Below are positions 21,387 to 27,300 of a stretch of DNA of 64,000 nt, piece by piece. This stretch comes from Chrysomallon squamiferum (lineage: Eukaryota; Animalia; Mollusca). Position 1 is the stretch's first letter; the number at the start of each line of letters is the position of its first letter. The position numbers and the translations under genes were made by a program. The stretch is taken from positions 4,836,001 to 4,900,000 of the forward strand of contig CM022672.1 of NCBI GenBank assembly GCA_012295275.1. Direction: 5' to 3'. The notes under the pieces were generated by a model. It had not been told where the DNA came from. It was given only the letters and a program-made list of their open reading frames with translations, and did not search any database.

Positions 21387-24300
21387 ATGGATCAGACAAA
21401 TAATTACTTCGAGATGAACCACATGTCCAGATCATTTGAAACGTTAGTTTATTTCAATTTATAGATGTTTATAAAAGTTAAGCATCAACCCTTCTCGGTG
21501 CATTTTTCCCAATCTAGCACTTGCTTTACGAGTTGTCTGATAACATAAAATTATTAATTACCTTTACTATATACTTCTGGATGACTCCTTTATATCTGTT
21601 TTTCCAACCTTTATTACAGAATTACGATATGGTGTTTTAACTGACATATAAAACACATCAAACCCCATTAATTTCAATATATATATATATATATATATAT
21701 ATATATATATATTGTTAAAAAAAATCGTTCCTGTTATAACTGATACTATTGCTGCTGCTATTAAAACTTAAAGAGATAATTTTTATGTCATATATTAAAG
21801 TCCAAGAGTATACACATCTATGGATCCAGAACAAACAATCCCAAAGATCACGCGTCATGACCCGTATGCCCATGGTCAGTTCGAGCGGATAAATCCAGTT
21901 TACGAGCCCGAACCTGAAATATCTTCCACGTACGTATTTATACTTTCACAGTTAACTATTTCAGTTATCTCACACCATCATCAGCTGCTGCTTCAACTGC
22001 AGCTGCTTCGACAACAAAAAATCTGCTACACCACTGCCATTACTGCTACTTGTACTAGTACTATTACTACTACTTTTATACTGCTGCTAGAACCAGTCGT
22101 GCTGCTGCTGCTACTACTACTGCTGCTGCTGCTACTACTGCTGCTGCTGCTAATACTAGCACTATTACTAATAGTGTTGTTACACTACTAGTAATACTAC
22201 TAGTACTACTATTATTAGCATTGCTGCTGCTACAATTTCTACTTATGCTGTTACTGCTGCCATTATTACTATCACTGCTGCTGCTACTTTTGCCAATACA
22301 GTTATTACTTCTAACGTTGCCAGTATCCCGTTTTCGTTTCTTTTTCTTCTTCATCTTGTTTTGTTTTGCTGTTGCTTTTGTTGTAATAATTTTGTATATT
22401 GTTTATTATTATTATTATTATTATAATAATAGTAGTAGTAGTAGTAGTAGTAGTAGTAGTAGTAGTAGTAGTAGTCGGAGTATTAATAATAGTATTGTTA
22501 TCATACTATTTTTATTAATACTGTTATTGCTAGTACTGCCATCTTTATTATCATTATTATTATTATTATTATTATTATTAGATTGATTAGTAGTAGTACT
22601 GCTGTTATTGTTGTTGTTACTGTCATACTAATAGTTATTGTTAGTATTACTACTACTACTACTACTATTACTACTATTTCTGCTACAACTACTACTATTA
22701 CATCAACAACTACTACTACTACTGTTGTTATTATTATTATTATTATTATTAAGACAAACTATGAGAGAACAAGAATTGGAGGAAATTGTGGAAGAACCCC
22801 CCGCAGACTACGAGTCTGAATCGTCAGCCCACCCAGGACAGCTGTAAGTATTTATTGACTGATTAGGTAAACAAGACTGAGTATGTAAATACATTACGTC
22901 CCATAGGGGAATAAACTTTGTTTCGAGCTTGACACCGCCACTATTGAAACACTATTCGGATGGAAGTTCTGATGTGATTTTACACACACACACACACACA
23001 CACACACACACACACACACACACACACACACACACACACACACACACACACACACAACACACACACACACACACACACACACACACACACACACACACAC
23101 ACACACACACACACACACACACACACACACACACACACACACACACACACACACACACACACACACACACACACACACACACACACACACACACAGACAC
23201 ACACACACACACACACACACACACACACACATACACACACACACACACACACACACACACACAGACACACACACACACACACACACAAACACACACACAC
23301 ACATACACACACACACAGACACACCGCCACACACATACAAACACACACACACACAGACACACACACACATTTTTTACATACACTTTACACACACACACAC
23401 GTACTTTATTTTATACACACACATTTTTTACATACATACACACTATATATATTTATATATATATAGACACACACACATACACATTGATACATTTATAAGA
23501 ACGCACATTGCAAGCACACAAAAAGACTTATGCACGCGCTTGCGCACGTACACACACTTAAGTATATACACTCACCCATAACCTGTACATCAAAATTACT
23601 ATCGAAGTATGAAATACTTTGTAACATTTAATAAAAAAAAAAAACAAACAAGATAAAACAAGATCTAATCAATGAAAGATTAAATCCATTTTTCTAACAA
23701 AGGCATACCAACAAGGTAGTAATAAACATTGCATTTTATTTGTCTGTCCAGATACGAGAAACAACTAATAAGCATTTGTGAGAAATGGCGAGTTATTTTT
23801 GGTTACCTCACATCCGGGTTTGACAACTGACTGCATGAGTCAGGATTTATGATAAGAATGTTTTTGTTACTTGTATTCAAACCCTGGTAACACATAAGTT
23901 CGTGAGTGTGGGCAGAGTAATAGGGACTTTTTCACCATGAGACTTTTCGTACCGATTTGTAGCATGCAGCCGCAACGTAGTTAGTGTTTCATTGTTTGGG
24001 TTCAACAAGTCGTGTCTTAAATATAAATATATATATATATATATATATCTACACACACACAGAGAGAGAGAGAGAGAGAGAGAGAGAGAGAGAGAGAGAG
24101 AGAGAGAGAGAGAGAGAGAGAGAGAGAGAGAGAGAGAGAGAGAGAGAGAGAGAGAGAGAGAGAGAGAGAGAGAGTTATCGGCATCTCACAATAAATATTT
24201 TACTCGCAATAATTCTAGTTACATTTCCCTTATAATTGATTTTTGTTAAAAAAAAAAAAAAAAAAAAAAATTATACTTTATCAGACATACTGACACGACT

Positions 24301-27300
24301 TTAATTAATTTTCATATTCATTTTAACAGTTTTAATCTTCATGTTTGTATTTTTAGACATTCATTCAGTAATATTCATTCACCGTTTTATTCAGTTTACT
24401 CTAATTTTGTTACTTCACCACACAGCGACTCCGAAAAAAAATACTTTATCTACGTTTATACAAAACTGTACGTCAGTCACACCCTATATGCAGTTTCTGC
24501 TAATCGCGTAGTGTGAACGCAGCTTTAGTTATTCGTTGCGATAAGGGAACACTTGGGAGTGATATTGGTTTGTCAGTATATGATTGTTACCCCAGAGACA
24601 CAACGGCTGTGTGTTGATGTTGACAGATCTGTTACACGAGCTGTCAGGGACGTTCTCTACGTCGTCAGCGACCTGTACACCATCAATTCAAAATAAGTGA
24701 GAAGTGCATTACACAGTACAGAAACTCGTTTATTCTATTATGAGTGTTAAAAACAAACGTCTTGTTTTAAGTGTAAAAAAATAAACCATACACTTAAAAG
24801 TGAATTTTATCCACATCTTTATGAAGAAGTCCATAAAAAAAAAAAAAAAAAAAAATTTATAAAATACATATACTGGGAAGTATCCAATGTTGAAAAAAAA
24901 AAAAAAAAAAAAAAAAAATAATAAAAATAATAATAATAACAGTGAACAGTTATCTTCATTATTTATCCATACTGTAACTAACATTTGGTTGTAAAAGATT
25001 CGTACCGTTAAAAAGACACACACACACACACACACACACACGCACACGCACACGCACACACACATACACGTATATGTACGTTCAAATGTCCTCATATATA
25101 GGCTATCATTATGAACAGTTTCATCTTCAGATCCAAACTTCATCTTCATTATATTACTGCCATCTGGATTATTATTATTATTATTATTATTATTATTTTA
25201 TTGTTGTTGTTATTGTTGTTGATTTTCTTCTTCATCTTTTTCTTCTTAGTAATATTGTAACTGAAGTTGCTATAATTAAAATAATTATTAATACTACAGC
25301 AATTACTATTACTATTACTACTACTACTACTACTACTACTACTACTAACACTACTACTATTACTATTACTACTACTACTACTATTATTACTACTGTTTCT
25401 GCTAGTCCTAATACTACTGCTATTCTACTGCAATAACCTCTACTACAATTACTACTACTACTACTACTACTGTTATTATTATTATTATTATTATTATTAT
25501 TATTATTATTATTATTATTATATAAAGGATTGCTCACCCAGACGTATCAGTTTTTTCGACTAAAACAGAAAACAGTGGAACTAAACCAGCTGGAGTAACT
25601 TACAGATCGGAAGACAGTGAAAGTGGAATTGGCTCATTTCGATCAAACGCTCCAGAAAATATTGGGTTTGTTGTTGTTATTATCTTTGATAATGATAATT
25701 TTATTCTTACTATTAGCATCATCATTAACATCACTGTCAGTATCATCATCATCATTATCACTGTTATTATTGTTGTTGCTTCTATTACTTCTGATGCTGC
25801 TACTACAGCTACTACGTCTTCTACTACTACTATTAATATTATTACTACTACTATTGCTGTTGTTATTATTATTTGAATGTCTTTAATTGCTAAGTTACCT
25901 AACTAGTAAAACTGGAAGCATATGCTTTCAATTCTTTTTCAGCAACACATCTCATGAAATTAGCTTTGACGACGTAGAGGAAGAAGATGTGGAAGAAATT
26001 CCATCTTGCTTCGATCGTCTGGGAGAACGTGTTGTTAAGACAGTGAAGGTGCTGACGTATGTGTTTCTGTTGGTGGTGGTTTTGTCGTCTGTTATAATCA
26101 GCAGAACGACTCTGTTGTTCATGACACAACAGTTCGGAAAAGTGAGAACTGCAGGGATACAGGTAAAACAAAACTCTCTCTCTCTCTCTCTCTCTCTCTC
26201 TCTCTCTCTCTCTCTCTCTCTCTCTCTCTCTCTCTCTCTCTCTCTCTCTCTCTCTCTCTCTCTCTCTCTCTCTCTCTCTCTCGCTCTCTCTCTCTGCCGC
26301 TCTGTCTTTAACTCTGTCTCTGTCTCTGCCCTTGTGTGTGTCTCTCTCTCTCTCTCTGCCGCTCTGTCTTTAACTCTGTCTCTGTCTCTGTCTCTGCCCT
26401 TGTGTCTCTCTTTCTTTCTCTCTTGCACTCTAACACTCGATAATTATAATATTTCAGCTCAGTTGTTATACATGTAAAGTTATATATGATTCATAACTGA
26501 TTATAAAAACAGTCAAATCACAGTATCATCATCATGAAAATTATTATCTCATTTCATAGCCTAAATATATCACTGCTTCTATTATTATTATTATTATCAT
26601 CATCATTATTATTATTATTATTATTATTATTATTATTATTATTATTATTATTATTATTATTATTATTGTAAATTAGTTATAAATCAGTTCGTTGAAAAGA
26701 TTTAACCATGTAAGATAGGGACTGTCATGATCAGTCTTTTCACATCCACTATTATTCGATTCATTATATTTTTAAATGTATTTATGTGTATTTGCATTCA
26801 TACATACGTACGAACGTAGATATATACATACAACACACATACATACATACATACATACACCAAAAAAGTAATAAAAAATATAGATGCACGCAAAAATGAC
26901 GATAGACAAAGATCGGCAGGCTTCGTGGGAAGCTATGATTACCCTCGGTTATTGAGCAACCTTTCTTAAGGTTGTCTTGATTTGCCGAACGGTAACGTCG
27001 TCCGCCTTCGGAGTTCGGGCGAATGGGCGCCATACGTTCGAGTCGGTGAAGTCGTGATTGGACTTTGTCCCCCTGCGCCAGTGCATTCCCGAATATTGTC
27101 TATGTGCACAGTCTATTCAGACGTACATAAGACAGAGAATATTCCAAATCACACATACTATATACATACATACACATACATTTATTTATTGAAGGATCAG
27201 CTTTGGAAAGACCACTACGCTTGTCTTCTAGCACTAAGTCTAAGTCTGCCAGATCTGGCTAAGGCCGTGTGGTGTAGTTTCTCACTGGCTTTCGGAACGA

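What the first reader, a model, noticed from the sequence alone, without database searches (positions are those of the whole stretch)
21387..25665. Myosin-less chitin synthase N-terminus retaining NPxY and PxxDY motifs: candidate adaptor-based link to microvillar actin
Seen: the acidic N-termini of the two paralogues are barely alignable except for NPVY ([12 protein letters not shown], exon 21801-21929; B: FTYQNPVYTSE, exon 51244-51354) and EEPPADY (A: 22754-22843; B: twice). Established: several lophotrochozoan CHS carry an N-terminal myosin motor; NPxY binds PTB/FERM domains (LDLR FDNPVY); PxxDY is the non-canonical ligand of Eps8-family and Nck SH3 domains; Eps8 has both PTB and SH3 domains and sits at microvillar tips, where chitin is secreted. 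Inference: these enzymes may replace the fused motor with a bipartite linear-motif module, possibly Tyr-phosphorylation switchable, for apical targeting or endocytic recycling. I know of no description of this in chitin synthases.
Basis: partly seen in the sequence, partly recalled or inferred. Interest (0 to 1): 0.8.

Follow-up and report, generated by a model that had tools for sequence, protein, structure and literature searches.

The report
Snail chitin synthase's relocated docking motif
Two neighbouring snail chitin-making enzymes without a myosin motor carry two short motifs, NPVY and PPADY, on a front tail predicted to face the cytoplasm; the PxxDY pattern also sits at the rear end of most myosin-bearing relatives, so it is likely a general docking site for cell-sorting or actin-adaptor proteins rather than a substitute for the motor.

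Summary
Observation confirmed. Genes A (21387-35691) and B (50701-63067) are tandem chitin synthases without myosin. RNA contigs splice A's motif exons and link the PPADY exon to the first transmembrane exon. A 5' UTR exon with an in-frame stop excludes an upstream myosin in that transcript. The Gigantopelta orthologue keeps NPVY and EPPQDY in an otherwise poorly alignable tail.

The 'motor replacement' reading is not supported. PxxDY lies in the C-terminal tail of 37 of 43 myosin-bearing spiralian chitin synthases, against 1 of 21 non-spiralian tails. All 11 bivalve orthologues of this myosin-less clade lack both motifs. Two caenogastropod orthologues keep PDPDY at the usual C-tail position; A, B and Gigantopelta lack it there and carry it N-terminally.

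Best reading: a spiralian-wide EPxPDY tail motif, likely an Eps8/Nck-type SH3 ligand, moved from one cytosolic tail to the other in this lineage. NPVY is likely an endocytic or recycling signal. Binding is untested. My literature searches and this scan's earlier notes showed no description of these motifs in chitin synthases.

The parts
20099..20153 (+). CHS A 5' UTR exon (covered part; true 5' end unknown), with a TAA stop in frame with the ATG
   Evidence: RNA contig of 234 nt covers 20099-20151, 21385-21442 and 21803-21923; in-frame stop
21387..21442 (+). CHS A coding exon 1 (starts at the ATG)
21801..21929 (+). CHS A exon 2, with NPVY at 21892-21903 (aa 50-53)
22754..22843 (+). CHS A exon 3, with EEPPADY at 22791-22811 (PPADY aa 77-81)
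   Evidence: 344-nt RNA contig covers 22761-22844
25528..25665 (+). CHS A exon 4, with ESGIGS at 25619-25636, aligning with DSGxGS of Haliotis and caenogastropod orthologues
   Evidence: same 344-nt contig, joint 25664/25942 GT..AG
25943..26162 (+). CHS A exon 5: end of the acidic tail and first transmembrane helix (aa 172-190)
   Evidence: tblastn to Gigantopelta CHS
27195..35691 (+). Rest of CHS A (10 exons): membrane domain, catalytic domain (GEDR, QRRRW), WGTRE, last two helices, and a C-tail without PxxDY
   Evidence: (loose end matches the 27195 exon)
50701..50750 (+). CHS B first coding segment; in-frame stops at 50659 and 50677, with no AG between them and the ATG
   Evidence: no RNA test
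51244..51354 (+). CHS B exon with YQNPVY (NPVY 51326-51337)
51787..51840 (+). CHS B exon with EEPPADY (51800-51820)
52676..52747 (+). CHS B exon with DEPPADY (52707-52727); made by duplication of a ~420-bp block (51454-51876 / 52362-52783, 73% identical)
55170..63067 (+). Rest of CHS B (11 exons), including an acidic dileucine-type DEYKLL before the first helix; C-tail without PxxDY

Best explanation
A and B are tandem, myosin-less chitin synthases whose N-terminal tail, predicted to be cytosolic and disordered, likely works as a docking strip: NPVY likely binds a PTB/FERM sorting adaptor for uptake and recycling, and EPPxDY likely binds an Eps8/Nck-type SH3 domain. Shown: genes, splicing of A, absence of myosin, motif positions and their conservation in Gigantopelta, and a PxxDY motif (consensus E-P-x-P-D-Y-D) in the C-tail of most spiralian chitin synthases, with or without myosin. 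Inferred: both tails face the cytosol; the motif was lost from the C-tail and regained in the N-tail in the lineage of A, B and Gigantopelta; adaptors use these motifs to set how long and where on the apical, microvillar membrane the enzyme stays. The motif would complement a motor where there is one and does not stand in for it.
For: PxxDY in the first 130 C-tail residues: 35 of 43 myosin-bearing sequences (1.0 expected by shuffling), 16 of 39 other myosin-less spiralian, 0 of 21 non-spiralian. After clustering at 75% core identity, 13 of 16 myosin-bearing clusters keep it; the variants PxxEY and PxxDF occur in 0 and 1 of 43. It spans molluscs, a brachiopod, annelids and rotifers. Babylonia and Batillaria orthologues have PDPDY after the same C-tail helix, while A, B and Gigantopelta lack it there. 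B duplicated its PPADY exon. Other sorting-type motifs lie in the same tail: YSNPxF in 3 of 3 Haliotis orthologues, [DE]xxxLL in B, Gigantopelta and Haliotis, and DSGxGS in Haliotis and caenogastropods. C-tail topology: the model of A's last exon (residues 1-465) superposes on yeast Chs1 716-1127 (Z 23.3, rmsd 3.1, 293 aligned), and Chs1's C-terminus is cytosolic (PMC10409773). N-tail topology: no hydrophobic segment before the first helix, and that helix aligns with the one that follows the myosin head in relatives. PxxDY binds Eps8/Nck SH3 (PMC9407544, PMC10767929); NPxY/NxxY binds SNX17/27 FERM (PMC11772769). Drosophila Kkv is endocytosed and recycled (PMC9894549).
Against: There are no binding or localisation data. 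The N-terminal pair rests on three sequences, two of them paralogues with signs of gene conversion. Tail alignments are weak: shuffle p=0.008 for A and 0.054 for B against Gigantopelta. Haliotis has EPDY without the first proline. A lacks the aromatic residue two places before NPxY (the LDLR-type context, recalled). Bivalve orthologues lack both motifs, and one myosin-bearing group (Lottia, Haliotis, Argonauta) lacks PxxDY in its tails, so the motifs are dispensable. The region after WGTRE has been predicted extracellular in print (PMC9894549; the ArCS1 preprint notes that standard tools and AlphaFold3 disagree).
Confidence: 0.5

Rival explanations
1. The tyrosines are acidic phosphotyrosine sites that recruit SH2 proteins (such as Nck) after phosphorylation, rather than being unphosphorylated SH3 or PTB ligands. 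This can coexist with the best explanation as a switch.
For: The C-tail consensus continues Y-D-[DE]-[DL]-P, and YDxxP occurs in 13 of 43 myosin-bearing C-tails, resembling Nck SH2 sites (pattern recalled). Phosphorylation of the PxxDY tyrosine is expected to block SH3 binding (PMC9407544).
Against: The motif is best defined upstream of the tyrosine: P two places before DY in 44 of 53 cases and E before the first P in 40 of 53. A and B continue YESE and YSSE, without the +3 proline.
Confidence: 0.2
2. The N-terminal motifs are unselected leftovers of recent common ancestry in an acidic, proline-rich tail.
For: Each motif arises in 2-7% of tail shuffles. A and B share converted tracts. Only one other genus has both motifs.
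Against: NPVY and EPPxDY are the main exactly matching blocks among three otherwise poorly alignable tails. The same PxxDY pattern is under strong conservation in C-tails across Spiralia.
Confidence: 0.12
3. One reading: NPVY plus PPADY form a bipartite Eps8 (PTB + SH3) site that replaces the lost myosin motor in linking the enzyme to microvillar actin.
For: Both motifs are in one tail, 16-40 residues apart, in three myosin-less enzymes. Eps8 has PTB and SH3 domains and sits at microvillar tips (PMC3302735). Free trees place the clade among myosin-bearing lineages.
Against: PxxDY co-occurs with myosin in 38 of 43. 11 of 11 bivalve orthologues lack myosin and both motifs. Secondary loss of the motor is not established (AU p=0.467). 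The passages read show an Eps8L1 PTB binding ezrin, not an NPxY peptide.
Confidence: 0.1
4. The motifs dock back on the enzyme itself (autoinhibition or dimer contact), as the N-terminal region and swapping loop do in yeast Chs1.
For: Chs1's N-terminal segment packs on the swapping loop, and the loop restrains activity (PMC10409773). The C-tail motif lies 31-45 residues after the last helix in 32 of 53 cases.
Against: The motif appears at either end of the protein and in 1-3 copies, which suits an external partner. Arthropod enzymes with the same core lack it.
Confidence: 0.08

Closest known systems
Gigantopelta aegis chitin synthase chs-2-like XP_041369704.1 (P0001)
   Same: 64% identity over A's last exon; sister to A+B in trees; no myosin; NPVY and EPPQDY in the N-tail; no PxxDY in the C-tail
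   Different: One copy found against two tandem genes here; its model starts at M-NPVY; B has two PPADY copies
Lophotrochozoan type II chitin synthases, groups A-D of Zakrzewski et al. 2014 (PMC3942024)
   Same: Same core and membrane architecture; myosin-less forms are known, both as group D and as secondary losses in groups B and C; tandem paralogues are known in Lottia
   Different: The parts read (1-3 of 4) describe no tail motifs; this clade could not be assigned to a lettered group
Atrina rigida myosin chitin synthase ArCS1 (Q288C6, P0067)
   Same: Carries a PxxDY motif (EPEPDY at 2137-2142) in a tail inferred cytosolic
   Different: Has a myosin head; the motif is C-terminal; no NPxY
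PxxDY ligands of Eps8/Nck SH3 domains (CD3 epsilon, Abi1/E3b1; ELM LIG_SH3_PxxDY_5)
   Same: Core PxxDY followed by acidic residues in a disordered tail
   Different: Binding is measured for those and only predicted here
Yeast Chs3/Chs2 cytosolic N-terminal trafficking regions
   Same: Chitin synthase traffic set by a cytosolic N-tail: AP-1 binding, recycling, phosphorylation (PMC12653383); a retromer YYL signal (PMC5577995)
   Different: Unrelated sequence and different adaptors

Membership tests
Animal type II chitin synthase | Chitin_synth_2 domain with GEDR, QRRRW and WGTRE motifs | tested here: met
Animal type II chitin synthase | Membrane helices on both sides of the catalytic domain; chitin synthase membrane fold | tested here: met
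   hydropathy; Z 23.3 to yeast Chs1
Animal type II chitin synthase | No C-terminal SAM domain (a feature of most type I enzymes) | tested here: met
   Pfam scan of both last exons found no SAM domain
Animal type II chitin synthase | Chitin synthesis activity | not testable with these tools
   inferred from intact catalytic motifs
Myosin-motor chitin synthase (groups A-C architecture) | N-terminal myosin motor domain | tested here: not met
   no tblastn hit; in-frame stops before both ATGs; 0 of 31 clade members were myosin-positive, some of them fragments
Group D (ancestrally myosin-less) versus secondary loss in A-C | Position outside the myosin-bearing clade | tested here: inconclusive
   free trees nest the clade among myosin lineages, but the AU test does not reject myosin monophyly, p=0.467; reference group labels were unavailable
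SH3 ligand PxxDY (Eps8/Nck) | PxxDY core in a conserved tail segment | tested here: met
SH3 ligand PxxDY (Eps8/Nck) | Cytosolic location | tested here: inconclusive
   inferred from hydropathy, alignment and superposition; no experiment
SH3 ligand PxxDY (Eps8/Nck) | Binding to an SH3 domain | not testable with these tools
PTB/FERM ligand NPxY | NPxY core | tested here: met
   A, B and Gigantopelta; NPxF in Haliotis
PTB/FERM ligand NPxY | Aromatic or hydrophobic residue two places before N (recalled from LDLR-type signals) | tested here: inconclusive
   Y in B and Haliotis; R in A; the Gigantopelta model begins one residue before N
PTB/FERM ligand NPxY | Binding to a PTB or FERM domain | not testable with these tools
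   needs peptide binding or pull-down

The most novel reading that the evidence does not exclude
Spiralian chitin synthases carry an ancient EPxPDY SH3-ligand that ties them to Eps8 at microvillar tips. In myosin-bearing forms the motor delivers the enzyme and the motif anchors it. In this snail lineage the motif moved from the C-tail to the N-tail, beside an NPxY recycling signal. This would be a direct molecular link between chitin synthase and the microvillar templates of chaetae, radula and shell chitin.
Probability: 0.3. Interest if true: 0.75.

Novelty: new variant of a known kind. Interest (0 to 1): 0.5.

Why it matters
How spiralians place chitin synthase on microvilli to shape chaetae, radula and shell matrix is open, and attention has been on the myosin head. 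A five-residue motif conserved from rotifers to bivalves names a candidate partner (Eps8 or Nck) and a two-residue mutation to test it. The window's genes show that the motif can change ends of the protein, as expected of a linear motif with an external partner.

Tried and rejected
No whole genome was held, so Eps8, Nck and SNX17 genes of this animal were not examined. Candidate exon 24627-24695 and the starts 25570/25576 for exon 4 were rejected by the RNA contig. Runs X5 and X6 gave almost no cover of the exons; all RNA support comes from one run, X1, at depth about 4. A search with the Gigantopelta membrane region returned only 10 proteins and no new orthologue. The representative search added mostly C-terminal fragments, so N-tail sampling remains thin. 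No animal chitin synthase was among the 7 PDB sequences matched. Zakrzewski's supplement could not be searched, so lettered groups were not assigned. Deep tree nodes are unstable. No complex prediction was run, for lack of a partner sequence. Literature searches: chitin synthase + Eps8 gave 0 papers; + NPxY gave 4, none on chitin synthase motifs by title and abstract start (one read by passages); + SH3 + Nck + actin gave 2 meeting-abstract books, listing only; the five-term microvilli search gave 3 unrelated items. Earlier scan notes held nothing on these motifs.
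Full report
Gene anatomy. The window holds two chitin synthase genes in tandem on the + strand. Exon models give A as 15 coding exons, 21387-35691, 1611 aa, and B as 15 coding exons, 50701-63067, 1458 aa, both without internal stops. All introns are GT-AG except one GC donor in A. 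Both carry GEDR and QRRRW and WGTRE, and hit Chitin_synth_2. The closest named relative is a Gigantopelta aegis enzyme, 64% identical over A's last exon, followed by Haliotis at 49-50%.

Observation. In RNA run X1, a 234-nt contig covers 20099-20151, 21385-21442 and 21803-21923, which includes NPVY. A 344-nt contig covers 22761-22844 (PPADY), then 25530-25664 and 25942-26041 with a GT..AG joint, reaching the exon that encodes the first membrane helix. A third contig continues from that exon into the 27195 exon. The exon 2-3 joint itself was not displayed and is inferred. The spliced leader has a TAA in frame with the ATG. B has in-frame stops at 50659 and 50677 with no acceptor before its ATG. 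Eight myosin-bearing N-termini found nothing in the window. RNA support comes from one of three RNA runs, at depth about 4, and only for A.

More than chance? Alone, each motif arises in 2-7% of shuffled tails. But Gigantopelta's tail begins MNPVY and has EPPQDY 32 residues later. These are the main exact blocks in a three-way alignment of otherwise weakly similar tails (shuffle p 0.008 for A, 0.054 for B). Three Haliotis orthologues have YSNPxF and EPDY. B duplicated its PPADY exon within a 73%-identical block.

Does the module replace myosin? I scanned 125 sequences: 123 of the 124 database proteins (one lacked QRRRW and was dropped), plus A and B. A and B belong to a well-supported myosin-less clade with chiton, bivalve and gastropod members. 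Among its 19 scanned members, N-tail NPxY occurs in 3 (A, B, Gigantopelta) and N-tail PxxDY in 4 (those plus the chiton). All 11 bivalve members (one lacking its N-tail) have neither motif in either tail. Conversely, PxxDY is in the C-tail of 37 of 43 sequences with Pfam myosin, and in either tail of 38. In the first 130 C-tail residues it occurs in 35 of 43 against 1.0 expected, in 16 of 39 other myosin-less spiralian sequences, and in 0 of 21 non-spiralian ones (one amphioxus has it further out). Clustering at 75% identity leaves 13 of 16 clusters positive, and PxxEY and PxxDF occur in 0 and 1 of 43. All 7 unnamed myosin-positive representatives with a full tail also have it (34 of 88 representatives overall). 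The consensus is E-P-x-P-D-Y-D. So the motif accompanies the motor. Whether this clade ever had a motor is open: free trees nest it among myosin lineages, but a 21-sequence AU test does not reject myosin monophyly (p=0.467). Both ancestrally myosin-less forms and secondary losses are described (PMC3942024).

Relocation. In the clade itself, Babylonia and Batillaria have PDPDY just after the C-tail helix that precedes EPEPDY in Atrina. Mytilus has EPDF/EPEF there, the chiton SPDY, and Haliotis EADY somewhat further on. A, B, Gigantopelta and one unnamed relative (P0125) have nothing like it. The first three carry EPPxDY in the N-tail. The simplest reading, which is inferred, is loss at one end and gain at the other. 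The chiton's N-terminal PQPDY and Haliotis EPDY leave open that an N-terminal copy is older.

Topology. The N-tail has no hydrophobic stretch (maximum window 0.12), and its first helix aligns with the helix that follows the myosin head in relatives, which is cytosolic in the ArCS1 model (10.64898/2026.08.31.748318). For the C-tail, an AlphaFold2 model of A's last exon (mean pLDDT 72.8) superposes over residues 1-465 on yeast Chs1 716-1127 (Z 23.3, rmsd 3.1), and both termini of Chs1 are cytosolic (PMC10409773). Older predictions put the post-WGTRE region outside the cell (PMC9894549), so this remains an inference.

Mechanism. PxxDY is the Eps8/Nck SH3 ligand, and phosphorylation of its tyrosine is expected to block binding (PMC9407544, PMC10767929). 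Eps8 sits at microvillar tips (PMC3302735). NPxY/NxxY binds SNX17/27 FERM domains for endosome-to-surface recycling (PMC11772769). The same tails hold acidic dileucine-type motifs and DSGxGS, which resembles a beta-TrCP degron (label recalled). Insect Kkv is endocytosed and recycled (PMC9894549), and yeast chitin synthases are routed by cytosolic N-tails (PMC12653383). I therefore favour a tail of independent sorting and docking motifs (0.5) over phosphotyrosine-SH2 docking (0.2), unselected leftovers (0.12), a bipartite Eps8 motor substitute (0.1) and self-docking (0.08). No binding was tested.

What I read. PMC3942024: parts 1-3 of 4 of the text; its supplement could not be searched and may bear on group assignment. 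ArCS1 preprint: passages and section 7. Passages only: PMC9407544, PMC3302735, PMC9894549, PMC12431666, PMC5995198, PMC10767929, PMC5577995, PMC11772769, PMC10409773, PMC12653383. Searches found no description of these motifs in chitin synthases; subscription papers are not covered.

Verdict. The feature is real, and the genes are ordinary members of a known family. The apparently undescribed element is the spiralian-wide EPxPDY tail motif and its shift to the N-terminus here. New variant of a known kind; interest 0.5.

Noticed in passing
window 36740-42956 vs 42946-49639: A tandem duplication of about 6.2 kb of non-coding DNA (blocks 69-89% identical) lies between the end of CHS A and the start of CHS B.
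   Followed up: no
window 27803-34527 vs 56663-61975: A and B are mosaics: tracts of 96-98.5% identity and a 1.8-kb block including introns at 84.5% sit beside divergent parts, suggesting gene conversion; B lacks A's intron 29076-29749.
   Followed up: partly
window 29939-29940: GC splice donor in CHS A, required by the reading frame and not checked in RNA.
   Followed up: partly
window 25619-25636 and orthologues P0002-P0004, P0019: DSGxGS is conserved in the N-tail of Haliotis, Babylonia and Batillaria orthologues (ESGIGS in A), resembling a beta-TrCP phosphodegron (label recalled); it is more widely kept among gastropods than the two motifs flagged.
   Followed up: partly
proteins P0024, P0025, P0027, P0030, P0032, P0035, P0038: Another paralogue group, which includes a myosin-bearing Haliotis enzyme, carries a conserved NPxF (mostly DNPAF-like) in its C-tail instead of PxxDY.
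   Followed up: partly
window CHS A exon 5 and B exon 55569-55764; P0001: The W-D/N-x-F motif before the first helix, kept in most clade members, is missing in A, B and Gigantopelta.
   Followed up: no
window ~5645-8401 (+): A gene with a weak F5/8 type C domain match (E 0.003, below cut-off), a Ser/Thr-rich stalk and a C-terminal hydrophobic segment.
   Followed up: partly
window ~810-4400 (-): Exons of a probable M17 leucyl aminopeptidase, judged from a recalled motif in the translation.
   Followed up: no
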